Assembly (NCBI GenBank): GCA_965200975.1 | Contig: OZ241740.1 | Location: 1,996,244-2,060,243 of the forward strand | Direction: 5' to 3' | Source of the DNA: Dehalococcoidia bacterium | GTDB taxonomy: Bacteria > Chloroflexota > Dehalococcoidia > Lucifugimonadales > Australimonadaceae | DNA: 64,000 nucleotides | In this document: positions 878 through 62,679 of the stretch, piece by piece | Layout: every line of letters begins with the position of its first letter | How positions within the stretch are numbered: position 1 is the stretch's first letter | Notes under the pieces: generated by a model | Told to the model about the DNA's origin: nothing | Database searches by the model: none | What the model saw: the letters and a program-made list of their open reading frames with translations, nothing else | Translations under genes and position numbers: made by a program

Positions 878-1795
878 ATGCGAATCGACGTTCACGCCCA
901 CTACATCCCAGCCTCTCTGCCCGAGATCGCGAACCGGCGCGGCGGCTTCGGCCCCGCCGCCAATATGCGCGACAGTATGTCCGACCTCGACCGGCGCATC
1001 GCCGATATGGACGAGCGCGGCATCGACGTCGAGCTCGTCTCCGCGCCGCCCTACGTGCAGAACGCCGACCCCGACGTCTGCCGGCGGATGAACGACGCCA
1101 CCGCCGAGGCGATAGCCGGTTCGGCGCGGTTCATCGGCCTCGCCACGCTGCCGATGCAAGAGCCGGAGACGGCTGCCGCCGAGCTCGAGCGGTGCGTGCG
1201 GGAGCTGGGCTTTCGGGGGTTGGAGATCCTTACGAACGTGCACGGCGAGAACCTGCACGCGCCGCGCTTTGCGCCCCTCTACCGCAAGATGGAGGAGCTC
1301 GACGTTGCAGCGTTCGTGCATCCGCAGAACGTGCTCGGCGCCGACCGGCTCGGCCAGTTCTTTATGAACAACATCATCGGCAACCCGAGCGACACCGCCG
1401 TCGCCGCAGGCTGCCTGATCTTCGGCGGCGTGCTGGCGGAGATGCCCGCGCTCCGGTTCGTCCTCGCGCACGGCGGCGGCACGTGCCCGCTGCTGCGCGG
1501 ACGCTGGGAACACGCCTGGCGGCAGCATCTGGTGGAGGACGCCGCCATCACCCGCCCGCCGTCGGAGTACTTCCGTAAGCTCTACTTCGACACCCTGACG
1601 CACAGCGGCCCCGCGCTCAGCTACCTGGTGGAGACGGTAGGGCCGGAGCGCCTGATGCTCGGAAGCGACTACCCGTTCGGCATGGGCGACTACACCCCGC
1701 CGGCGAGCGTGCAAGCCCTCCCCCGCCTAACCGACGCCGAACGCGACGCCATCTACAGCCAAAACGCCATCCGCGTATTCGGCCTCGACCTCTAA
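878..1795 (+). CDS. amidohydrolase family 2 (ACMSD-like metal-dependent hydrolase/decarboxylase)
   Basis: ORF 878..1795. It starts RIDVHAHYIP (metal-binding HxH), has HGGG mid-protein and GSDYPFG near the C-terminus. Confidence 0.8.
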   Translation: MRIDVHAHYIPASLPEIANRRGGFGPAANMRDSMSDLDRRIADMDERGIDVELVSAPPYVQNADPDVCRRMNDATAEAIAGSARFIGLATLPMQEPETAAAELERCVRELGFRGLEILTNVHGENLHAPRFAPLYRKMEELDVAAFVHPQNVLGADRLGQFFMNNIIGNPSDTAVAAGCLIFGGVLAEMPALRFVLAHGGGTCPLLRGRWEHAWRQHLVEDAAITRPPSEYFRKLYFDTLTHSGPALSYLVETVGPERLMLGSDYPFGMGDYTPPASVQALPRLTDAERDAIYSQNAIRVFGLDL

Positions 1796-1843
1796 GCAGC
1801 GCACCCCGCCCCGCCTGCGGCTGCCAGAGCGCGGCTGCCCCTT

Positions 1844-2050
1844 GGCTGCCAGGGGGTCTGGGGGAGCGGACGCTCTCCCAGCTGCTACGCAACACCGGCG
1901 CCCCGCCCATAACAGCCCCCAGCTGCTACGCAACACCGGCGCCCCCGCCTGCTCAGAGGCGCCCCCACGCAACAGCTCGCCTGCCCAGAGCACGCCGCCT
2001 TGTCGACAACTCCCGGGAGAGAGTTCTCTCCCCCGGACCCCCTCATTATT
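1844..2050 (+). repeat. REPIN/MITE-like element, copy A (contains an internal ~40-bp duplication)
   Basis: Left end ggctgccAGGGGGTCTGGGGGAGCGGACGCTCTCCCAGCTGCTACGC. Right end CTCCCGGGAGAGAGTTCTCTCCCCCGGACCCCCTCATTATT. The two ends are inverted copies of each other and each is itself a hairpin. Confidence 0.9.
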
Positions 2051-2114
2051 GCTCCTGCTGCGCGCTTGCTCCTGCTGCGCGCTCGCGCCTGCTTAGGGAC
2101 GCCGCCCGCCAGAC

Positions 2115-2279
2115 GGCTGCCAGGGGGTCTGGGGGAGCGGACGCTCTCCCAGCTGCTACGCAACACCGGCGCCCCCGCCTGCTCAGAGGCGCCCCCACGC
2201 AACAGCTCGCCTGCCCAGAGCACGCCGCCTTGTCGACAACTCCCGGGAGAGAGTTCTCTCCCCCGGACCCCCTCATTAT
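2115..2279 (+). repeat. REPIN/MITE-like element, copy B
   Basis: Near-identical to 1920-2050 over ~165 bp, with the same terminal hairpins. Confidence 0.9.
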
Positions 2280-2343
2280 GTATTGCAGCGCGCCCGCGCT
2301 TGCTGAGGGCGCGCGCGGTGGGGAATTCCTTGGTTGCAGACTG

Positions 2344-2374
2344 TTGACAGCGGCAACCGGATAACTCGTATACT
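2344..2374 (+). promoter_or_regulatory. sigma70-type promoter of cassette 1
   Basis: TTGACA (2344-2349), 19-nt spacer, TATACT (2369-2374). The same arrangement sits at the same place upstream of cassette 3 and resembles the rpmH promoter at 41389. Confidence 0.6.
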
Positions 2375-2497
2375 ATTGCCCCCGTTGGGCGTTTTGCCCG
2401 GCGGCGCCTCGCCGGATAGAGGGCGGGGCGCGGCGGTCTGCGATAGCCGTTCAGGAGGGCGAACGCTTCCTGCGGCGATCAGGAAAGGAGGAGCGCG
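2375..2497 (+). promoter_or_regulatory. conserved ~120-nt 5' leader of cassette 1 with covarying hairpins
   Basis: Alignable with 4943-5060. GCGCCTCGCC..GGCGGGGCGC and CAGGAGG..CTTCCTG stems change compensatorily in copy 3. Ends in the RBS GGAAAGGAGG. Confidence 0.4.
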
Positions 2498-3396
2498 ATG
2501 AGTGCGCTTTCGAGTGTTCGTCCCGTTCGGTTGGTTGCCCTGCTGGCTGCGCTACTCGCGCTCGTCTCACTCGGCATCCCCCCCCCGCACACGCAGCGTA
2601 TGAGGACTGCCCGGGGAGCACGTGCACGATAGCGGTCGATGACTCCACGGACGTCCTCACGATCACCTACACAGACACAGACCACAACGGTGTAACGACG
2701 ACATTGACGGCGTCGGTGACGTTCACCAATGACTCAGGCGACCCCGGTTGGGAGAATCCGACATTCACAGGGGGGCTGAGGCTTCCTGCTCAGACTCCTC
2801 CCTATGAATTTGGCGATCTGCCCTCCAACCGTTGGTTGTACTCCAACGAAGTCTACTTCTACGAGAACAACGACCGGTTCTACATTCGGCGCGGCGGCTA
2901 TAACAGCGTGGGCATCAACGGCGGCTATAACAGCGTGGGCATCAACGGCGACTATAACGCTGAGACCGGCAACGTCGATTTCCTCGTCATCGGCACCGAT
3001 CCCGACCAGACCTTCACCGTATCCGGAACCCCGGCCACCCCGCCCTCGACCCTCGACCTCGGCACGTGCACGGTGAGCTCCGGTGGCGAGAGCGGCAACT
3101 GGTGCACCACCAACACGCCGAAGATCACCGTCACCTACGACGACAACGATACGTCGAGCGTCAACCTGCGGATATGGGGGCGCAAGCCGTCCTACAACCC
3201 GGCTAGCATCAAGCGCGCCTCTAACGGCGGACACATAGGCATACCCGGGTGGCGGAGCAGCGTCCGCACGATAACGTTCTCGCGCAACGGCTACGAGGAC
3301 GTTAAGGTGGACTTCTCGGTGGACTACCGCAACGACTTGGATCCCCCCTTGCACGGCAGCAGGTTCGTTCTCTCGGCTTGGGAGCGCGACTACTAG
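2498..3396 (+). CDS. secreted protein, paralog 1 (signal peptide and mature domain in different frames at a C9 tract)
   Basis: ATG 2498 with RBS gives MSALSSVRPVRLVALLAALLALVSLGIPPP, then stops at 2630-2632. The mature frame is open from the C-run through ORF 2704..3396. One extra C would give ...PPPPAHA|AYEDC, an AxA cleavage site. Confidence 0.7.
2893..2946 (+). repeat. perfect 27-bp tandem duplication inside paralog 1
   Basis: ggcggctataacagcgtgggcatcaac occurs twice back to back (GGYNSVGIN x2), followed by a diverged third unit. Confidence 0.95.
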
Positions 3397-3432
3397 CAAG
3401 CGCGCAAGCGCACAAGCAGCAACGAGTAGAGA

Positions 3433-3469
3433 GGGGCGGGGGCCATGCGTGGCCCCCGCCCTTTCTTTG
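3433..3469 (+). terminator. Rho-independent terminator of cassette 1
   Basis: GGGCGGGGGCCA-tgcg-TGGCCCCCGCCC followed by TTTCTTTG. Confidence 0.85.
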
Positions 3470-3497
3470 CGCCCCGCGCGGCTGGCGGCTGCCCCTT

Positions 3498-3662
3498 GGC
3501 TGCCAGGGGGTCTGGGGGAGCGGACGCTCTCCCAGCTGCATCGCAACACCGGCGCCCCGGCTGCTCAGAGGCGCCCCCACGCAACAGCTTGCCTGCCCGG
3601 AGCACGCGCGCTTGTCGACAACTCCCGGGAGAGAGTTCTCTCCCCCGGACCCCCTCATTATT
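3498..3662 (+). repeat. REPIN/MITE-like element, copy C
   Basis: Same two terminal hairpins and core as copies A and B. Confidence 0.9.
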
Positions 3663-3740
3663 GTTTGCTGCGCGCCCGCGCTTGCTCCCTCGTTATTTGC
3701 TTGCTCCGCGCCCGCGCTTGCGCCGCCTCGTTATTGCCCC
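3663..3740 (+). repeat. iterated sub-terminal motif array (GCGCTTGC..CCTCGTTATT)
   Basis: cgcgcttgctccctcgttatt and cgcgcttgcgccgcctcgttatt follow directly after the ..CCCCCTCATTATT end of copy C. Confidence 0.7.
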
Positions 3741-3792
3741 CTGCGCAAAGCGCCCCTCCGTGGCCCAGAGCGCCCGCTCTCCCGGCGCGCTG

Positions 3793-3822
3793 TTGACAGG
3801 GGCGCGTGGAGGCTGGTATAAG
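3793..3822 (+). promoter_or_regulatory. sigma70-type promoter of cassette 2 (extended -10)
   Basis: TTGACA (3793-3798), 18-nt spacer, TGG-TATAAG (3814-3822). Confidence 0.6.
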
Positions 3823-3938
3823 AATCCCCCCGCTGGGGCGGCCTGTCTCGCGGGGATCCTTGCCGGAAAGGGCGAGGAGCGACAGCGATTCCGTTCCGGG
3901 AGGCGGGCGCCCCCCGCGACAGATAAGAAGGAGTGCCA

Positions 3939-4489
3939 ATGAGTTCGCTTCTGAGCATTCGTCCCGTCTGGTTGGTCGCCATGCTGCTGCGCTGCTCGCG
4001 CTCGCCTCGCTCGGCATTGGCGCCCTCCTCTCCCCCGCCGCGCATGCGCAATCGGCGACCGTCATCGACGGTCAGGGCCGCAGCAGCATAGAGCTTCCCC
4101 CCATCAAGCCCCTGCCCCGCGGCGGCGTCCTCGACCTCGGCTCGTGCACGGTGCCCGTCCCCGGCGTGCACGGTAACGCCTACGAGTGCACCACCGACAC
4201 GCCGACGATCAGCGTCACCTACTTCAACGACGAGTCCCGGGTCTCGAGCGTCGATCTGCGGATATACGCCGGCAAGCCGTCGTACAACCCGGCCAGCAGG
4301 AGGTACGCTCCTCGCGGGCGTATTTGGATACCCGGGTGGGGGAACAGGGTCCGCACGATAACGTTCTCGCACCGCGACCTCCCGAACATTCTCGTGAACT
4401 TCAGGGTGTCCCGCAGCTGCGACGACGATGGCAACTGCAAGCCCGTCCTCACGGTTTGGGAGCAGCAAAGCAACTTCTGGTACCGGTAG
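3939..4489 (+). CDS. secreted protein, paralog 2 (short form; 1-nt frame break inside the signal peptide)
   Basis: RBS AAGGAG plus ATG 3939 gives MSSLLSIRPVWLVA, then goes off frame. The mature frame (ORF 3806..4489) reads ..AAALLALASLGIGALLSPAAHA|QSATV. Alignment to copy 1 shows one nucleotide missing near 3980. Confidence 0.65.
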
Positions 4490-4517
4490 AAGCGCAAGCG
4501 CAACCTACAGCAAGAGA

Positions 4518-4554
4518 GGGGCGGGGGCCACGCAACACCCCCGCCCCCTTTTTG
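4518..4554 (+). terminator. Rho-independent terminator of cassette 2
   Basis: GGGGCGGGGG-ccacgcaaca-CCCCCGCCCC followed by TTTTTG. Confidence 0.85.
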
Positions 4555-4584
4555 CGTCCTGCCCACAACGCCAAGCGGGTGCGG

Positions 4585-4622
4585 AGAATAACGGGGGGGG
4601 GATAACGAGGGCGCGGGGGGAG
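4585..4622 (+). repeat. iterated sub-terminal motif array (ATAACG(A)GGGGG)
   Basis: gagaataacggggggggg, gataacgagggcg and gagaataacgaggggg stacked in front of copy D. Confidence 0.65.
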
Positions 4623-4859
4623 AATAACGAGGGGGTCTGGGGGAGCGGACGCTCTCCCAGCTACAACGCAACACCCCCGCCTCGCCCATAACAGCCCCCT
4701 GCGCAACCGCGCTCGGCGCTGCCCCCGGCTGCCAGGGGGCGCCGCCCGGACGGCTGCCCCCCGCTGCAACGGCAATGAGCGCTGTCTGCTGTTGTATGGG
4801 CGGCGCCGGCTGCCGACACTCCCGGGAGAGAGTTCTCTCCCCCAGACCCCCTCGTTATT
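4623..4859 (+). repeat. REPIN/MITE-like element, copy D (long variant, subfamily II core)
   Basis: Ends AATAACGAGGGGGTCTGGGGGAGCGGACGCTCTCCCAGCTAC ... CTCCCGGGAGAGAGTTCTCTCCCCCAGACCCCCTCGTTATT. The core differs from copies A-C and matches inverted copy E. Confidence 0.85.
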
Positions 4860-4911
4860 CTTCCTCCGCAACCGCGCTTGCGCCCCGCGGGAATTCCCTG
4901 CTTGCAGACTG

Positions 4912-4942
4912 TTGACGGCGGCAACGGGAGGACTCGTATACT
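4912..4942 (+). promoter_or_regulatory. sigma70-type promoter of cassette 3
   Basis: TTGACG (4912-4917), 19-nt spacer, TATACT (4937-4942). The flanking box gaattccctgcttgcagactg is conserved with cassette 1. Confidence 0.6.
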
Positions 4943-5060
4943 AATTGCCCCGTTGGGCGTTTTGCCCGGCGGGCGCCTCGCCTGACAGGGCGAGGCGCGG
5001 CGTCTGCGGCGCCGTTCAGGGGGCGGGCGCTCCCTGCGGCAGTAAGAAAGGAGGAGCGCG

Positions 5061-5884
5061 ATGAGCGCGCTTTCGAGTGTTCGTCCCGTTCGGTTGGTTG
5101 GCCTGCTGGCTGCGCTACTCGCGCTCGTCTCATTCGGCATTTTCACCCCCCCCCCGCGTATGCAGCGTTTACAGACTGCGACAATGAGTCGGGGAGCACG
5201 TGCACGCTAGCGATAAGCGGCGAAACCCTCACGATCACCTTCACCGATGGTGAGACGGCGGCGGTGACGTTCACCACTACCGCAGGCGCCCCCGATTGGA
5301 AAGATGAGACCCTCTCATCGGGTCTGAGTGAAGTGGATTTTTCCACCCTGAGCCGCACACCGCCTATAAAGCTGTTGGGAAACGACGAAGTCTACTTCTA
5401 CAAGAACAACAACCGGTTCTACATTCGGCGCGGCGGGTATCACAGCGTGCGCATCGACGCCGACGAGGACAACAACACCTTCAAGTTCCTCGTCCGCAAC
5501 ATCGGGGAGACCATCACCATAAACGGCTACCCGGACACGATCCTCGACATAACCAATTGCGAGGGCCCCAATGCGCCCGAATGCACCTCGAACAAGCCGA
5601 CGATCAGCGTCGCTTACGCCAACGGCTTTACCTCGAGCGTCCGGTTGCGGGTGCACAGAGGCAAGCCCTCCTATATTCCGAGCAGCCGTAGCCCCGCCTT
5701 TGGCGGAGGATCCATCAGCATACCCGGGTGGGGCAGGAGCATCCGCACGGTAACGTTCTCGCACTCCCTCTTTAAGGACGTCAAGGTGGATTTCGCCGTG
5801 GACTACCGCTGTGATCGGGACTCGGACGGCAAACGCACCAATTGCGGGTACAGGGTCTCGGCCTGGAAGAGCGACAGCCAGTAA
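5061..5884 (+). CDS. secreted protein, paralog 3 (signal peptide and mature domain in different frames at a C10 tract)
   Basis: ATG 5061 gives MSALSSVRPVRLVGLLAALLALVSFGIFTPPP, then stops at about 5208. The mature frame is open through ORF 5264..5884. One extra C would give ..TPPPPAYA|AFTDC. Confidence 0.7.
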
Positions 5885-5914
5885 GCGCGCAAGCGCAAGC
5901 AATGCAACGAGAGA

Positions 5915-5947
5915 GGCGGGGGCCTTGCGTGGCCCCCGCCCTTTTTG
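5915..5947 (+). terminator. Rho-independent terminator of cassette 3
   Basis: GGCGGGGGCC-ttgcgt-GGCCCCCGCC followed by CTTTTTG. Confidence 0.85.
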
Positions 5948-6009
5948 CGCCCTGCGCGCCCTGCGCGCCCGCGCCTGCGCTTGGCAGCCGAGTGCTGGCG
6001 GGGAGGAGG

Positions 6010-6177
6010 AAATAACGAGGGGGTCCGGGGGAGAGAACTCTCTCCCCCGGGAGTTGTCGGCAAGTCGGCGCCCCTCAAACAGCAGACAGCGCTCATACGT
6101 TGCGCAGGGGCTGCTATGGGCGGGGCGGTTGCGTTGCAGCTGGGAGAGCGTCCGCTCCCCCAGACCCCCTCGTTATT
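6010..6177 (-). repeat. REPIN/MITE-like element, copy E (inverted, subfamily II core)
   Basis: AAATAACGAGGGGGTCCGGGGGAGAGAACTCTCTCCCCCGGGAG ... CAGCTGGGAGAGCGTCCGCTCCCCCAGACCCCCTCGTTATT. The core is the reverse complement of the copy D core. Confidence 0.85.
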
Positions 6178-6250
6178 CTCCCCCCGCCGCCCCTGCCCCC
6201 CCTCATTATTGCTTGCTCCCCCCGCCGCCCCTGCCCCTCGTTATTCTTCT
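6178..6250 (+). repeat. iterated sub-terminal motif array
   Basis: cccgccgcccctgccccccctcattatt and ccgccgcccctgcccctcgttatt follow copy E. Confidence 0.6.
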
Positions 6251-6346
6251 CTCCTCCTCCCCGCCAGCGATCGGCTGCCATCTCCCCCGAAGGCGGCAGC
6301 CGTATCGGGTATACTCGCGGCATTCCCTTTGGAGCGTGGAGGCGGT

Positions 6347-7285
6347 ATGGCGGATTTGGAGAAGCGCGCACTGGGCCGCACGGGCATCGACATCACCGTT
6401 CTCGGCTACGGCGCGATGGAGCTGCGCGGCGCCCCCCGCGGACGCGATCTGTCGGAGGACGACGCGGGGAGCATCCTCAACGCCGTCCTCGACCTGAGCG
6501 TCAACTTCATCGATACGTCTATCGACTACGGGGTGAGCGAGGAGCGCATCGGGCGCCATATCGCGCGCCGCCGCGGCGAGTACTTCCTCGCCAGCAAGTG
6601 CGGCTGCCTCGTCGGCTGGGAGCCCGATCCCGGGCGCGACCGCGGCGGCCCCCACGTCTACACCAAGGAGAATATCGTCGCGGGGATCGAGCAGAGCCTG
6701 CGGCGCCTGAACACCGACTACATCGACCTGCTCCAGGTGCATATGACGCCGTCGCGGCAGGCGCTGGAGGAGAACGACGTCGTCGGCACGATGACCGAGC
6801 TGCGCGACCAGGGCAAGATCCGGTTCCTCGGAATGTCCGGCGCGATACCCAACCTCGCCGACCATATCGCGATGGGCGCATTCGACGCGTTCCAGATCCC
6901 CTACTCCGCCTCCCAGCGCGAGCACGAGAGCCTCATCTCCGCAGCCTCCGCAGCCGGCGCCGGCGTCATCATCCGCGGCGGCGCGGCGCGCGGAGCCCCC
7001 AGCGGCGATCAGCGCGCCGCCCAGCGCAATCCCGAACTCCTCGACGTCTGGGAGCGCGCCGGGATGGACGAGCTCCTCGACGAGGGGCAGTCCCGCATGG
7101 AGTTCGTCATTCGCTTCACCGAAACGCACCCGGATATGGACACCAACATCGTCGGCACGATCAACCCCGCGCACCTGGAGGCGAACCTCGCCGCCGCCGC
7201 CAAGGGGCCGCTGCCGGCGGACGTGTACGACGAGGCGAAACGCCGCCTCGCCGACGCAGGAACAGCCCCTCAAGCCCTCGCATAA
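6347..7285 (+). CDS. aldo/keto reductase
   Basis: In-frame ATG 6347 within ORF 5945..7285 gives MADLEKRALGRTGIDITVLGYGAMELRG...IDTSIDYG. The upstream part of the ORF reads through repeat DNA. Confidence 0.85.
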   Translation: MADLEKRALGRTGIDITVLGYGAMELRGAPRGRDLSEDDAGSILNAVLDLSVNFIDTSIDYGVSEERIGRHIARRRGEYFLASKCGCLVGWEPDPGRDRGGPHVYTKENIVAGIEQSLRRLNTDYIDLLQVHMTPSRQALEENDVVGTMTELRDQGKIRFLGMSGAIPNLADHIAMGAFDAFQIPYSASQREHESLISAASAAGAGVIIRGGAARGAPSGDQRAAQRNPELLDVWERAGMDELLDEGQSRMEFVIRFTETHPDMDTNIVGTINPAHLEANLAAAAKGPLPADVYDEAKRRLADAGTAPQALA

Positions 7286-14630: not shown

Positions 14631-14801
14631 GGCTGTGGCCGCCAGGGGGTCTGGGGGAGCGGACGCTCTCCCAGCTGCTACGCAACACCCCCGCCGCGCC
14701 TGCTTAGAGGCGCCCCCACGCAACAGCTTGCCTGCCCAGAGCACGCGCGCTTGTCGGCAACTCCCGGGAGAGAGTTCTCTCCCCCGGACCCCCTCATTAT
14801 T
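14631..14801 (+). repeat. REPIN/MITE-like element, copy F
   Basis: Same terminal hairpins and subfamily I core. Confidence 0.9.
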
Positions 14802-14882
14802 CGCTCCTCCCCCCGCTCGCGCTTGCCCCCTCGTTATTGCTCGCGGCGCGCCCCGCCTGCCAGAGCGCGCCGCCCGCCGGAT

Positions 14883-15015
14883 GGCTGCCAGGGGGTCTGG
14901 GGGAGCGGACGCTCTCCCAGCTGCTACGCAACACCGGCACCGCGCCTGCTCAGAGCACGCCGCCTTGTCGACAACTCCCGGGAGAGAGTTCTCTCCCCCG
15001 GACCCCCTCATTATT
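14883..15015 (+). repeat. REPIN/MITE-like element, copy G (core-deleted short form)
   Basis: Both terminal hairpins are intact. The core is about 35 bp shorter than in copy F. Confidence 0.85.
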
Positions 15016-15100
15016 TGCTCCTCTCCCCACTCGCGCTTGCTCCCCTCGTTATTCTTCCTCCCCGCTCGCGCTTGCCCCCCCCTCGTTGTATTGCTGCGCG
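15016..15100 (+). repeat. iterated sub-terminal motif array
   Basis: ctcgcgcttgctcccctcgttatt and ctcgcgcttgcccccccctcgttgtatt follow copy G. Confidence 0.7.
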
Positions 15101-15164
15101 CGCTCCCTGGGCAGCGTGACAATTGGCGGTTGCGCGGGGCGCTTGGACGCTGGATGCTGCGGGT

Positions 15165-15503
15165 ATGTCGCTCGAACATGCTCGCGAAATGCGATCGAAT
15201 CCGACGGAGGCGGAGGCTGCGCTGTGGCAGCGTCTGCGGCGGAACAGGCTCGACGGCATCCACTTCAGGCGGCAGGCGTTGCGCGGGCGGTACATCGTCG
15301 ACTTCCTTGCTCCGAAGGCCCGGCTGGTTGTCGAGATCGACGGCGGGCAGCACGGGGGCGCGTACGACGCCCAGCGGGACCGCGCTCTGCAGCGGATGGG
15401 GTATACGGTGCTGCGGTTCTGGAACAACGAGGCGCTCACGAACGTAGAAGGAGTGCTGGAGGTCATTCGCCGCGCAGCGCACCCCGAGGGCGAGGGGCAA
15501 TAA
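15165..15503 (+). CDS. DUF559 endonuclease-domain protein (Vsr-like PD-(D/E)XK)
   Basis: In-frame ATG 15165 of ORF 15123..15503: MSLEHAREMRSNPTEAEAALWQRLRR..FRRQ...YIVDF...VVEIDGGQH...VLRFWNNE. Confidence 0.85.
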   Translation: MSLEHAREMRSNPTEAEAALWQRLRRNRLDGIHFRRQALRGRYIVDFLAPKARLVVEIDGGQHGGAYDAQRDRALQRMGYTVLRFWNNEALTNVEGVLEVIRRAAHPEGEGQ

Positions 15504-15536
15504 CGAGGGGGGCGGAGGACATTAACGAGGGGGCGA
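15499..15536 (+). repeat. iterated sub-terminal motif array (AATAACGAGGGGG x3)
   Basis: caataacgagggggg, cattaacgaggggg and aaataacgaggggg; the last one is the true end of copy H. Confidence 0.7.
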
Positions 15537-15703
15537 AATAACGAGGGGGTCTGGGGGATCGGACGCTCTCCCAGCTGCTACGCAACACCGCCGCCCCCGG
15601 CTGCTCAGAGGCGCCCCCACGCAACCGCTTGCCTGCCCCAGAGCACGCGCGCTTGTCGACAACTCCCGGGAGAGAGTTCTCTCCCCCGGACCCCCTCATT
15701 ATT
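15537..15703 (+). repeat. REPIN/MITE-like element, copy H
   Basis: AATAACGAGGGGGTCTGGGGGATCGGACGCTCTCCCAGCTGCTACGC ... CTCCCGGGAGAGAGTTCTCTCCCCCGGACCCCCTCATTATT. Confidence 0.9.
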
Positions 15704-15923
15704 TTCTCCTCTCCGCGCTCGCGCTTGCTTAGGGGGCAGCAGCGCGATGGGCGTGCGGCGTGAGGGGGGTTCCCAAAGCAGGCGGAATGGTGCAACCTTA
15801 GGGCGAGCCCCGTTGAGAGGCAGCGCCCACCCTCACGGCGCTCACCCTCGCGGCGCTCATCGACCGTTCGCATTGTCGGCGCCGCACTAATGGCTTAGCC
15901 TGCCGCCGGAGGAGCTTCAGCAT

Positions 15924-37135: not shown

Positions 37136-38475
37136 TCACATCCACACCTCCATCGACGGAGGACTCATGAACGCAAGCGCCAGCGCGTCCGCCTTGTCCG
37201 GCGACGGCAGCCCCGCCTTTCGCAACTCCTCCTTGCTCACTAGCCGGATACGTCCTCCGCTCTCGATCCTGTACCGCAACGACAACAGCTGACCAACGAG
37301 CTCCGGGTCGTCCGGCAGCGCAATCTCCTCCTCCGCCATCCGGCGCCGCAACTCCCAGAAGATCTCCGCCCGCAGGTCCTCGAAACGCTCTTTCAGACGC
37401 GCCCGGCCTCCCGCCTGCACGCCGATCACCGGCGCCCCCAACTCCTTCAAACGGTCCACCACGCCGCCGCCGACCCCCGCCTCGTCCACGAACACCGCCA
37501 CCACCTCTTGCGCATTCACCGCCTCGTTCACTTCCGCCGCTATCCGCATCGTGTCCACTCCCCGGTACACCGCCATCCTCTCGACCCGCGGCCCCCGGCG
37601 CAGACACAGCACCGTCTTGTCGTTGCCGAACCGCGCAACGTCCCCCCCCCATAATCAGGAACGCCCCCTCCGAACGGGCGGCTCCCCGCCCCCAGCGCGC
37701 CACTGCCGCGTCCAACTGCTTGCGCGACACCAGCGAGTCGTCCAGAGCCTCGGGAAACTGCCCCAGCACCGCAATCACATACCGGGAGTCGTCCTCTCCC
37801 CACTCCCGCCGGCGCTCATCCACATCCTCCGGAGTCAGCATCCCCGGCACAGCGTCGGGGCGGCCCGCAACCAGGTTCGGCGTGTCGAACGCCGAGATCG
37901 CCACCCGCGAGTACAGCGCGCTCTTCGAGTGATGCGAGTCGTAGAACTCCCCCGTCAGCGACAACGGGTTGCCGGTGAACAGCAGCCGCTTCGGGTTCAG
38001 CCGCTTCAGAGCGTCGAGGTGGCCCTGCCCCACCGCGTGAGCCTCCGTAACCACCACCAGCAACTCCGGCGAGTGAAACCCCTGCAGGTTGTACGGATGG
38101 TCCGTCGCGAACCCCAGCGCAAACCGCTCGTCGTTCACCACGTACTTCGACGCGTGCATCTTCCCGCTCAGGCTTCGGCCAGCCAGCGCATACGCCAGCC
38201 GAAGCTCCCGCCACACCACCTCCTCCACCTGCCGCTGCGTCGGCCCCGTCACGATCGCCTTCGACTGCAAGCGCGTCTCTATCCACCACAGCACTACCCG
38301 GGCCGCAGCCCAGTCCTTCCCCCGATCCGTTGCATCCCACCACCGACACCCGCCGGTTCGCCGCCACTCGCTCCAGCACTTCCGACTGCTTCCCGTACGG
38401 TCTCCCTCCTTCCCCCAGCACATCCTCCACAAACCCCACCGGATCGTCCGCGTACTGCTCCAGCGCCAGCCCCAT
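37136..38475 (-). pseudogene. terminase large subunit, broken by two frameshifts in G-runs
   Basis: Three ORF pieces. 38475->~38322: ..VVGCNGSG. ~38320->37650: KDWAAARVVLWWIE...GFHSPELLVVVTEAH. 37648->37136: DVARFGNDKTV...VFVDEAGVGGG...SPDKADALALAF. Confidence 0.85.
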
Positions 38476-55416: not shown

Positions 55417-55575
55417 CCCAAGCGCTCATGCCCCCACGACGCTTGCCCATTGCCCCATGCTCCCCGCGATTGATACGCTGCCCATCGCGACAGCCCCCCC
55501 CCGACGTGAAGCCATACCCCCACTTACGAGTGAGATGAGCCCAATTACCTCCGCATCGATGCGAAAGCAGGCCCC

Positions 55576-62489: not shown

Positions 62490-62679
62490 CTTGCTTGCTC
62501 CGGAGATATTCGCCGATGCGTTCCTCGGCCTTGCGAAACACCGTGATGTCCTCAGTCCGGTTGTACTCAGCGTGCGCCTCTCGCCGGATCTGATTTACCA
62601 CGGGGTCGCCTTCGCTAGCTAAGCTGGTGGCTGGCTCCCCCCCCCAGCGCAGCCCCGGGTCCCAGTGTTTCTCCGTCAT
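62473..62679 (-). CDS. small paralog P2
   Basis: MTEKHWDPGLRWGGEP..GDPVVNQIRREAHAEYNRTEDITVFRKAEERIGEYLRSK. ATGA overlap with P1. Confidence 0.5.
   Translation of the reverse strand: MTEKHWDPGLRWGGEPATSLASEGDPVVNQIRREAHAEYNRTEDITVFRKAEERIGEYLRSKQGDGED

What the first reader, a model, noticed from the sequence alone, without database searches (positions are those of the whole stretch)
5140..5215. Paralog 3: same frame break at the homologous C10 tract
ATG 5061 encodes MSALSSVRPVRLVGLLAALLALVSFGIFTPPP, then a C10 run (5146-5155) leads to a stop near 5208. Adding one C gives ..TPPPPAYA|AFTDCDNESGSTC in frame with ORF 5264..5884. Two paralogs with different tract lengths (9 and 10) are both exactly one C short of being in frame. 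That is either a systematic under-call of long C runs or a shared OFF state of a slippage switch.
Basis: partly seen in the sequence, partly recalled or inferred. Interest (0 to 1): 0.55.

Follow-up and report, generated by a model that had tools for sequence, protein, structure and literature searches.

The report
Slippage-prone C10 run silencing secreted-protein gene
A run of ten C's right after the signal-peptide code of a secreted-protein gene really is in the DNA and knocks the gene out of frame; this is the familiar on/off repeat layout of phase-variable surface genes, here caught "off" in a gene family that is mostly being silenced.

Summary
C10 lies at 5146-5155, ATG 5061 runs to TAG 5208-5210 (49 aa), and C11 or C8 would fuse a signal peptide (..GIFTPPPAYA|AFTDC; three Pro, not four) to the 5156-5884 body. 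It is not an assembly under-call. Five independently assembled public read sets (7 runs) carry the same C10, and that run series shows Illumina adapter remnants. The tract belongs to a separate class of 9-10-nt C/G runs: run lengths fall 173, 26, 3, 1 for 5-8 nt, then rise to 5 and 1 for 9 and 10 nt. Two intergenic 9-mers differ by one base between samples, so runs of this length do slip. The layout is the known one for poly-C/G phase variation at the signal-peptide boundary (Gardnerella nanH3, Neisseria pilC). Switching of this tract was not seen; my look-up could only retrieve C10. The family has five paralogs, all in this genome. One is intact with no tract, two are broken at C9/C10, and two are broken by single-base indels at non-repeat sites that are the same in every assembly retrieved. 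A phage terminase gene is also broken at a G9. Best reading: a real, slippage-made, in principle reversible OFF allele in a family being silenced. Ordinary in kind, modest interest.

The parts
4912..4942 (+). Promoter-like element of paralog 3: TTGACG (4912-4917), 19-nt spacer, TATACT (4937-4942)
   Evidence: Conserved in all three window paralogs. The consensus scan did not call it because the spacer is 18-19 nt. Promoter function is inferred.
4943..5060 (+). About 120-nt 5' leader with four conserved hairpins, ending in the ribosome-binding site AAAGGAGGAG (5047-5056)
   Evidence: Alignment of the three paralogs. Consensus fold has 35 pairs, only 2 of them with compensatory changes. No Rfam match.
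5061..5145 (+). Start codon and signal-peptide coding part (MSALSSVRPVRLVGLLAALLALVSFGIF-T)
   Evidence: 96% identical in DNA to paralog 1 over 80 nt, against 67% for the gene bodies. The signal peptide is judged by inspection: basic n-region, hydrophobic core, A-x-A.
5146..5155 (+). C10 homopolymer tract, the site of the frame break. C11 or C8 would be in frame.
   Evidence: Identical C10 in Logan contigs L006-L010.
5208..5210 (+). Premature TAG that ends the 49-aa product of the ATG frame in the C10 state
5156..5887 (+). Body frame of paralog 3: the AYA|AFTDC... mature protein, 239 aa after the predicted cleavage site, through stop 5885-5887
   Evidence: 48% identical in protein to paralog 1. 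Predicted all-beta fold; the C-terminal domain has pLDDT about 80.
5915..5946 (+). Intrinsic terminator of paralog 3: 10-bp G+C stem followed by a T run
2498..3399 (+). Paralog 1: ATG 2498, C9 tract 2578-2586, premature stop 2630-2632, body frame 2587-3396. C10 or C7 would be in frame.
3939..4492 (+). Paralog 2: ATG 3939. One G is missing at about 3986-3987 (ctgctg[G]ctgcg) inside the signal-peptide code, with no long C run there. Body frame runs to 4489.
   Evidence: The same deletion is present in Logan contigs L002-L004.
4593..4601 (+). Intergenic G9 tract between paralogs 2 and 3, variable in length between samples
   Evidence: G9 in the window and L003; G8 in L002 and L004.
37642..37650 (-). 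G9 tract (coding strand) that breaks a phage terminase large-subunit gene. G8 or G11 would be in frame. The gene has a second break at a G5 run, 38318-38322.
   Evidence: The repaired protein matches PHROG_2 terminase large subunit in one stretch, residues 11-437, E 1.1e-31.
55494..55502 (+). Intergenic C9 tract 74 nt upstream of a zinc-type dehydrogenase gene (ATG 55576), variable in length between samples
   Evidence: C9 in the window, C8 in Logan contig L025.

Best explanation
The C10 run is genuine DNA. It sits at the boundary between the signal-peptide code and the mature-protein code of a secreted, beta-rich protein of unknown function. This is paralog 3 of a five-member family found only in this genome.

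With ten C's, a ribosome starting at ATG 5061 stops at TAG 5208 after 49 residues, and the 239-residue mature part is not made. With C11 or C8 a full secreted precursor of about 270 residues would be made.

The break was produced by replication slippage on a homopolymer long enough to be hypermutable. Mechanistically it is therefore a reversible ON/OFF (phase-variation-type) locus, captured in the OFF state, as is paralog 1 (C9).

Shown:
- The tract, the frames and the OFF state.
- Reproducibility of C10 in independent read sets.
- That 9-10-nt runs are a distinct, length-variable class in this genome.

Inferred:
- That this particular tract still toggles.
- That ON cells exist.

Four of the five paralogs are frame-broken near the 5' end, two of them at non-repeat sites. 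The family as a whole therefore appears to be undergoing silencing, and the OFF state may be on its way to permanent loss.
For: - Tract, frames and repair.
- The same C10 is in five Logan contigs from 7 runs.
- Illumina adapter remnants occur in contigs of the same run series.
- About 3.9 kb of window sequence was compared with independent assemblies. Apart from the two 9-mers, one SNP, and a C5>C3 difference in a repeat element at two contig ends, nothing differs. All 5-6-nt runs outside that repeat agree.
- The run-length distribution is bimodal.
- The tract encodes PPP as CCC-CCC-CCC, unlike every PPP in the reference genes.
- Intergenic G9 and C9 tracts differ by one base between samples.
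- The intact paralog P0005 has ..GIFASAAQA|QS with no C run at the homologous place.
- Promoter-like element, leader, RBS, ATG, signal peptide and terminator are conserved between paralogs 1 and 3 at 84-96% identity, while the bodies are 67% identical and remain open for 239 and 266 codons.
- The C-terminal domain occurs elsewhere with PKD, fn3, LRR and FlgD_ig domains in signal-peptide-bearing proteins. This marks it as an extracellular protein class.
- The same layout is documented for Gardnerella nanH3: poly-C of 8-14 right after the signal peptide, with truncated peptides of 37-44 aa (bioRxiv 10.1101/2020.09.16.300947).
Against: - No allele other than C10 was seen for this tract. The look-up can only find exact products, so only C10 contigs were retrievable.
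- A look-up designed to catch contigs that start inside the run, as a length bubble in the assembly graph would give, found nothing.
- No full-length (ON) protein of paralog 1 or 3 exists among the complete gene products of the protein collection searched. Logan products cut at contig ends appear not to be in that collection, so this is weak evidence.
- Paralogs 2 and 5 are broken at non-repeat sites, identically in all assemblies retrieved, and a terminase pseudogene is broken at a G9. Long runs here are therefore also associated with plain gene decay.
- The sequencing platform of the SRR3396055x runs that show the 8-versus-9 differences is not known.
Confidence: 0.55

Rival explanations
1. 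Plain pseudogene. The family is no longer needed, or is selected against. Paralogs 1 and 3 were inactivated at their most mutable site, and the OFF state is fixed. There is no functional switching, and the tract is just the place where the first hit fell.
For: - Four of five paralogs carry 5'-proximal frameshifts. Two are at non-repeat sites (missing G at about 3986 in paralog 2; extra base at tgcAAtcgcc in paralog 5) and are identical in every independent assembly retrieved.
- All retrievable paralog 3 contigs are C10.
- No contig starts inside the run.
- No ON protein is in the collection.
- A terminase gene is also dead at a G9 plus a G5.
Against: - The bodies of paralogs 1 and 3 have no stop or further frameshift in 266 and 239 codons. 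The promoter-like element, RBS, ATG and terminator are intact.
- The 5' modules of paralogs 1 and 3 have diverged 4-12%, while both tracts stayed pure and both bodies stayed open. This suggests that tract and function coexisted for a long time (inference).
- Other tracts of this length are variable between samples, so reversion is mechanistically expected.
Confidence: 0.3
2. Sequencing or assembly artefact. The true tract is C11 (and C10 in paralog 1), and long C runs are under-called.
For: - All three coding tracts of 9 nt or more in the window break a frame, while both C7 tracts in coding sequence are in frame.
- Two 9-mers differ by one base between the reference and some Logan contigs.
Against: - C10 is reproduced in five contigs from 7 runs, in a run series that shows Illumina adapters.
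- The terminase G9 needs minus 1 or plus 2, the opposite sign to paralogs 1 and 3.
- Non-homopolymer frameshifts in paralogs 2 and 5 are also reproduced in independent assemblies, so real frameshifts are common in this family.
- Many genes of 600-750 codons elsewhere in the window are uninterrupted.
Confidence: 0.07
3. Recoding. The full-length protein is made from the C10 template, either by -1 ribosomal frameshifting on C CCC CCC or by RNA polymerase slippage that adds one C to the mRNA.
For: - In paralogs 1 and 3 the heptamer C CCC CCC is in the zero frame.
- Paralogs 1, 2 and 3 all need the same shift, -1.
Against: - There is no unusually stable or conserved RNA structure downstream of either tract (z-scores +0.5 and -1.1).
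- Paralog 2 has no slippery run at its break, and paralog 5 needs the opposite shift.
- The intact paralog has no such site.
- From general knowledge, efficient transcriptional slippage in bacteria is documented mainly for A/T runs.
Confidence: 0.05

Closest known systems
Gardnerella piotii nanH3 poly-C phase variation (bioRxiv 10.1101/2020.09.16.300947, read)
   Same: - A poly-C run about 100 nt from the start codon, immediately after the signal-peptide code.
- Out-of-frame lengths give peptides of 37-44 aa that hold only the signal peptide (here 44 and 49 aa).
- Annotation pipelines then call a protein that lacks its signal peptide, exactly as here (P0001 and P0003 start downstream of the tract).
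   Different: - In nanH3, lengths of 8-14 C were seen within cultures, and in-frame lengths were seen. Here only C10 (and C9 in paralog 1) is documented.
- The protein here has no known function.
- Two tandem paralogs carry the tract, and other paralogs are broken at non-repeat sites.
Neisseria pilC and other Neisseria/Haemophilus/Campylobacter contingency loci with intragenic poly-G/C (own knowledge: Jonsson et al. 1991 for pilC; phasome survey PMC5953494 listed, not read)
   Same: - A homopolymer in the signal-peptide coding region of a surface or secreted protein gene.
- The frame is set by tract length.
- The genome holds a distinct class of long G/C runs.
   Different: - Those are host-associated pathogens with measured switching rates and observed ON and OFF alleles.
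- This is an unidentified 67% G+C bacterium known from metagenome-type data, and no ON allele was observed.
Homopolymer-tract phase variants in Mycobacterium tuberculosis, e.g. the glpK 7C tract (bioRxiv 10.1101/717272, PMC6667613, PMC10334774; titles and abstracts seen)
   Same: Reversible frameshifts at C/G runs in a high-G+C genome, where long runs are otherwise rare.
   Different: - The glpK tract is shorter and lies in a metabolic gene.
- Its reversibility was shown experimentally.
- Here the tract lies at a signal-peptide boundary in a paralog family.

Membership tests
Phase-variable (contingency) locus with an intragenic homopolymer tract | An uninterrupted G/C run of about 8 nt or more inside the 5' part of the reading frame | tested here: met
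   C10 at 5146-5155, 86 nt after the ATG. C9 in paralog 1, 81 nt after its ATG.
Phase-variable (contingency) locus with an intragenic homopolymer tract | Changing the tract length by one unit moves the gene between a full-length and a truncated product | tested here: met
   In silico, C11 or C8 gives a signal peptide fused to the 239-aa mature part, and C10 gives 49 aa.
Phase-variable (contingency) locus with an intragenic homopolymer tract | Length polymorphism of this tract within or between populations | tested here: inconclusive
   Only C10 was retrieved (5 contigs, 7 runs), but the look-up can only return C10. A look-up for contigs starting inside the run found nothing. JGI metagenomes hold no copy of the locus. 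Other 9-mers in the window do vary: G8/G9 and C8/C9.
Phase-variable (contingency) locus with an intragenic homopolymer tract | Both ON and OFF alleles exist | tested here: not met
   No full-length product of paralog 1 or 3 is in the protein collections searched. Caveat: Logan contigs break inside the signal-peptide code at 31-mers shared with paralog 1, and products cut at contig ends appear not to be in those collections.
Phase-variable (contingency) locus with an intragenic homopolymer tract | The product is surface-exposed or secreted | tested here: met
   An N-terminal signal peptide with A-x-A is seen by inspection. The intact paralog P0005 has one in frame. The C-terminal domain co-occurs with PKD, fn3, LRR and FlgD_ig domains. 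No signal-peptide predictor was available.
Phase-variable (contingency) locus with an intragenic homopolymer tract | High-frequency, reversible switching of expression | not testable with these tools
   Needs cultures, or deep read-level or single-cell data.
Pseudogene (fixed loss of function) | The disabling mutation is present in all sampled genomes | tested here: inconclusive
   Every retrievable assembly has C10, but retrieval is biased towards C10.
Pseudogene (fixed loss of function) | Further disabling mutations or loss of expression signals | tested here: not met
   The body frame is open for 239 codons, and the promoter-like element, RBS, ATG and terminator are intact.
Programmed -1 ribosomal frameshift site | A slippery heptamer X XXY YYZ in the zero frame | tested here: met
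   ac[C CCC CCC]cg in paralog 3 and at[C CCC CCC]cg in paralog 1.
Programmed -1 ribosomal frameshift site | A downstream stimulatory RNA structure, conserved among homologs | tested here: not met
   Folds of the 80 nt after each tract are no more stable than shuffles (z +0.53 and -1.14) and are not alike. Paralogs 2, 4 and 5 have no such site.
Homopolymer sequencing artefact | The length call is not reproduced by an independent platform or read set | tested here: not met
   C10 is reproduced in 5 contigs from 7 runs. TruSeq adapter remnants occur in contigs of the same run series.

The most novel reading that the evidence does not exclude
This uncultured high-G+C bacterium maintains a true "phasome": a dedicated class of 9-10-nt C/G tracts in coding and promoter-proximal positions. 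It uses them, together with selected 5'-proximal knock-outs, to switch off secretion of a private family of extracellular beta-rich proteins. Plausible pressures are a phage, a predator or a host that recognises these proteins. Paralogs 1 and 3 would then be live switches whose ON forms appear only in some conditions. This would be a contingency-locus system outside the usual host-adapted pathogens.
Probability: 0.3. Interest if true: 0.55.

Novelty: new member of a known kind. Interest (0 to 1): 0.35.

Why it matters
If the tract toggles, it would extend contingency-locus behaviour, best known from host-adapted pathogens, to an environmental high-G+C bacterium and to an uncharacterised family of secreted proteins. 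It would also mark that family as one under fluctuating selection.

There is a practical consequence too. Gene callers annotate these genes as signal-peptide-less fragments (P0001, P0003, P0006), so such loci are systematically mis-annotated in metagenome-derived genomes.

If it is only decay, it is an ordinary example of frameshift pseudogenes arising at mutational hot spots.

Tried and rejected
- Pfam on the three repaired paralogs: nothing significant.
- Word-indexed protein search: returned only the genome's own fragments.
- Genome-contig scan: one remote hit, a 121-aa protein of an Acidimicrobiales MAG carrying only the C-terminal domain. The window's own genome was not returned, so the organism stays unidentified.
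- JGI metagenome scans with a DNA pattern allowing any tract length, and with a family profile: nothing.
- Contig look-ups that returned nothing: P0001, P0003, the 49-aa and 44-aa ATG-frame peptides, and the 494-aa terminase-frame ORF.
- Look-up for a product starting inside the C run, a test for graph branching at the tract: nothing.
- Rfam on 1700-6400: only chance-level miRNA hits.
- Fold search of the AlphaFold model (mean pLDDT 65.7) against the PDB: no match with E <= 0.001 and TM about 0.15, so no functional lead.
- RNA folding downstream of the tracts: no frameshift-stimulating structure.
- Paper search for the run accessions: nothing.
- A Markov simulation timed out. It was replaced by analytic expectations and the observed run-length table.

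Full report
**1. The observation**

The sequence is as described.
- AAAGGAGGAG (5047-5056) precedes ATG 5061.
- The ATG frame reads MSALSSVRPVRLVGLLAALLALVSFGIFT, enters a run of ten C's (5146-5155) and ends at TAG 5208-5210 after 49 residues.
- Adding one C, or removing two, joins this frame to the frame of ORF 5264..5884. The junction then reads ..GIFTPPPAYA|AFTDCDNESGSTC.., a typical signal peptide with an A-x-A cleavage motif followed by a 239-residue mature protein.
- Paralog 1 (ATG 2498, C9 at 2578-2586, stop 2630-2632) is also one C short; C10 gives ..GIPPPAHA|AYEDC...

**2. The gene and its family**

The window holds three tandem paralogs.
- Each has a conserved promoter-like element: TTGAC[AG], an 18-19-nt spacer, then TATACT or TATAAG. 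The consensus scanner missed it because of the spacer length.
- Each has a leader of about 120 nt with four conserved hairpins, a strong RBS, an ATG, a signal peptide, a body and a terminator.
- Between paralogs 1 and 3, promoter plus leader is 88% identical, the signal-peptide code 96%, the body 67% and the 3' end 84%.

Searches for relatives gave little.
- Pfam finds nothing.
- The word-indexed search finds only the genome's own fragments.
- An exhaustive profile search of 1.84 billion representatives finds 24 proteins. Most share only the C-terminal domain of about 70 residues (LRVxxGKPSYxPxS...W..RTxTFS). In those proteins the domain sits alone or in tandem in signal-peptide-bearing proteins, next to PKD, fn3, LRR, FlgD_ig or GLUG domains. 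It is therefore an extracellular module with no curated model.
- The only two full-length relatives, P0005 and P0006, lie on the same 2,381,319-bp contig as the window. The family thus has five paralogs, and the full-length form is private to this genome.
- An AlphaFold model is all-beta (mean pLDDT 65.7; about 80 in the C-terminal domain) and has no significant structural neighbour in the PDB. Function is unknown.

**3. Is C10 real?**

The protein-to-contig index holds Logan assemblies of public runs.
- Their contigs break where 31-mers repeat, so I predicted a contig starting at 5103 with a partial gene starting at 5105.
- That exact 259-residue product is on five contigs from seven runs: SRR33991074, SRR33991081, SRR33991084, SRR33991085, and SRR33960551 plus two further runs. 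All five read C10.
- Contigs from the same SRR339910xx series begin with TruSeq adapter remnants (..ACACGACGCTCTTCCGATCT..TTCAGACGTGTGCTCTTCCGATCT). The adapter identity is from my own knowledge. These are therefore Illumina libraries, not long reads prone to homopolymer under-calling.
- About 3.9 kb of window sequence was compared with independent assemblies. The only differences are one SNP, a C5>C3 difference in a repeat element at two contig ends, and two 9-nt runs. All 5-6-nt runs outside that repeat agree.

The under-call explanation is therefore unlikely (about 0.07).

**4. Long runs are a special, unstable class here**

- C runs on the + strand number 173, 26, 3 and 1 for lengths 5 to 8, then 4 and 1 for lengths 9 and 10. 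G runs number 43, 7, 0, 0 and then one G9.
- Extrapolating the decay predicts far fewer than one run of 9 nt or more; six are present.
- The intergenic G9 at 4593-4601 is G8 in two Logan contigs and G9 in a third.
- The intergenic C9 at 55494-55502 is C8 in a contig from SRR33960551, a run that has C10 at paralog 3.
- Runs of this length thus change on population time scales. I could not prove these differences are biological rather than technical, because the platform of the SRR3396055x runs is unknown.
- The tract encodes PPP as CCC-CCC-CCC. In 15 reference genes CCC is 37.5% of Pro codons, and none of six PPP triplets is all-CCC.
- The intact paralog P0005 has ..GIFASAAQA|QS with no C run at the homologous position. 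The tract is therefore a derived feature of paralogs 1 and 3.

**5. What argues for decay rather than a tuned switch**

- Paralog 2 lacks one G inside its signal-peptide code (ctgctg[G]ctgcg, about 3986-3987), not in a long run. The deletion is identical in three Logan contigs from five runs.
- Paralog 5 (P0006 locus, L017) has an intact ATG and signal peptide (MSMTRIFLAVTGLLMLALLLAAYFVAPAPVAA|QEEP..SC), then one extra base at tgcAAtcgcc. This is identical in all eight contigs inspected; 22 were read, and the index lists the product in 39 blocks of the collection.
- Four of five paralogs are thus frame-broken within the first 160 nt or so, while their bodies remain open.
- The third coding run of 9 nt or more in the window, a G9 on the minus strand at 37642-37650, breaks a phage terminase large-subunit gene. 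That gene has a second break at a G5. The repaired protein matches PHROG_2 in a single stretch over residues 11-437, E 1.1e-31. This gene needs G8 or G11, the opposite sign to paralogs 1 and 3.
- Both C7 runs in coding sequence are in frame.
- For paralog 3 I found no other tract length, but only C10 products can be looked up. A look-up for a product beginning inside the run, as expected if the assembly graph branched at the tract, found nothing.
- No full-length protein of paralog 1 or 3 is in the collections.

**6. What argues that tract and function coexisted**

- The 5' modules of paralogs 1 and 3 differ by 4-12%, far more than the near-zero differences between samples.
- Despite that, both tracts are uninterrupted, both bodies are open for 239 and 266 codons, and all expression signals are intact.
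- By inference, had the genes been dead since their 5' modules diverged, stops and further indels would be expected.
- So either the genes toggled under intermittent selection (classical contingency behaviour), or they sat ON for a long time and slipped OFF recently, together with the hits in paralogs 2 and 5.

**7. Recoding**

- C CCC CCC is in the zero frame in both genes, and paralogs 1-3 all need a -1 shift.
- There is no unusually stable or shared structure after the tracts (z +0.53 and -1.14).
- Paralog 2 has no slippery site, paralog 5 needs the opposite shift, and the intact paralog has no such site.
- I rate recoding at about 0.05.

**8. Comparison with known systems**

The layout is that of Gardnerella nanH3.
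- nanH3 has a poly-C run of 8-14 about 100 nt from the start, right after the signal-peptide code.
- Out-of-frame lengths give 37-44-aa peptides.
- Annotations lack the signal peptide (bioRxiv 10.1101/2020.09.16.300947).

From my own knowledge, Neisseria pilC has the same layout. Homopolymer phase variants are also established in high-G+C Mycobacterium tuberculosis (10.1101/717272, PMC6667613, PMC10334774).

Membership in "phase-variable locus" is met for anatomy and for the frame logic. It is not met, or is inconclusive, for the defining population features: length polymorphism of this tract and the existence of ON alleles.

**9. Verdict**

- The best explanation (0.55) is a real, slippage-generated and in principle reversible OFF allele at a hypermutable C run, in a family of secreted proteins that is being silenced.
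- A plain fixed pseudogene is the main rival (0.30).
- It is a new member of a known kind, of modest interest.
- The read-level tract-length distribution in the named runs would settle it.

Noticed in passing
window 3939-4492 (break at about 3986-3987): Paralog 2 is out of frame because one G is missing inside its signal-peptide code, not in a homopolymer run. It also lacks the N-terminal roughly 100-residue part of the mature protein. The deletion is identical in three independent Logan contigs.
   Followed up: yes
L011 1700-2548 and L017 335-1202 (same genome, outside the window): Two more paralogs lie on the same 2.38-Mb contig. P0005 is intact with an in-frame signal peptide and no C run. 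The P0006 locus is broken by one extra base at tgcAAtcgcc just after the signal peptide, identically in all eight Logan contigs inspected (the product is listed in 39 blocks of the index).
   Followed up: yes
window 37136-38475, minus strand (G9 at 37642-37650, G5 at 38318-38322): A phage terminase large-subunit gene with two frameshifts, one at a G9 run and one at a G5 run. The repaired protein matches PHROG_2 across both breaks. Probably a decaying prophage or GTA-like remnant.
   Followed up: partly
window 4593-4601, 55494-55502, 62637-62645, 15075-15082: Other long C/G runs in apparently non-coding positions. The G9 at 4593 and the C9 at 55494 are one base shorter in some independent assemblies. 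The C9 at 55494 lies 74 nt upstream of a zinc-dehydrogenase gene, so it could affect a promoter. The run-length distribution in the window is bimodal.
   Followed up: partly
window 1831-2279, 3485-3663, 4613-4662, 6135-6187, about 14700-15720: Several families of REP/MITE-like palindromic repeats (for example GGGGGTCTGGGGGAGCGGACGCTCTCCCAGC and CCCGGGAGAGAGTTCTCTCCCCCGGACCCCCTCATTATT) flank every paralog and recur elsewhere. They are where short-read contigs break.
   Followed up: no
window 2375-2497, 3823-3938, 4943-5060: The leaders of about 120 nt in the three paralogs share four hairpins (35 predicted pairs, few compensatory changes) and have no Rfam match. This may be a regulatory leader.
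   Followed up: partly
window 2892-2950: A 27-nt tandem duplication inside the body of paralog 1 (GGYNSVGIN twice), in frame.
   Followed up: no
whole window: The + strand is strongly C-rich (C 24,751 against G 18,268). GC skew is -0.04 to -0.31 in every 4-kb block, and five of the six long runs are C on this strand.
   Followed up: no
P0004, P0007-P0024; L001 5890-6255: The C-terminal domain of about 70 residues (LRVxxGKPSYxPxS..W..RTxTFS) has no Pfam model. It occurs singly or in tandem in about 20 other protein clusters with PKD, fn3, LRR, FlgD_ig or GLUG domains, and alone in a 121-aa protein of an Acidimicrobiales MAG (OZ241331.1).
   Followed up: partly
L020, L022, L024 (first about 25 bases): These Logan contigs begin with Illumina TruSeq adapter remnants. 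This contaminates the assemblies but identifies the platform of the SRR339910xx runs.
   Followed up: yes
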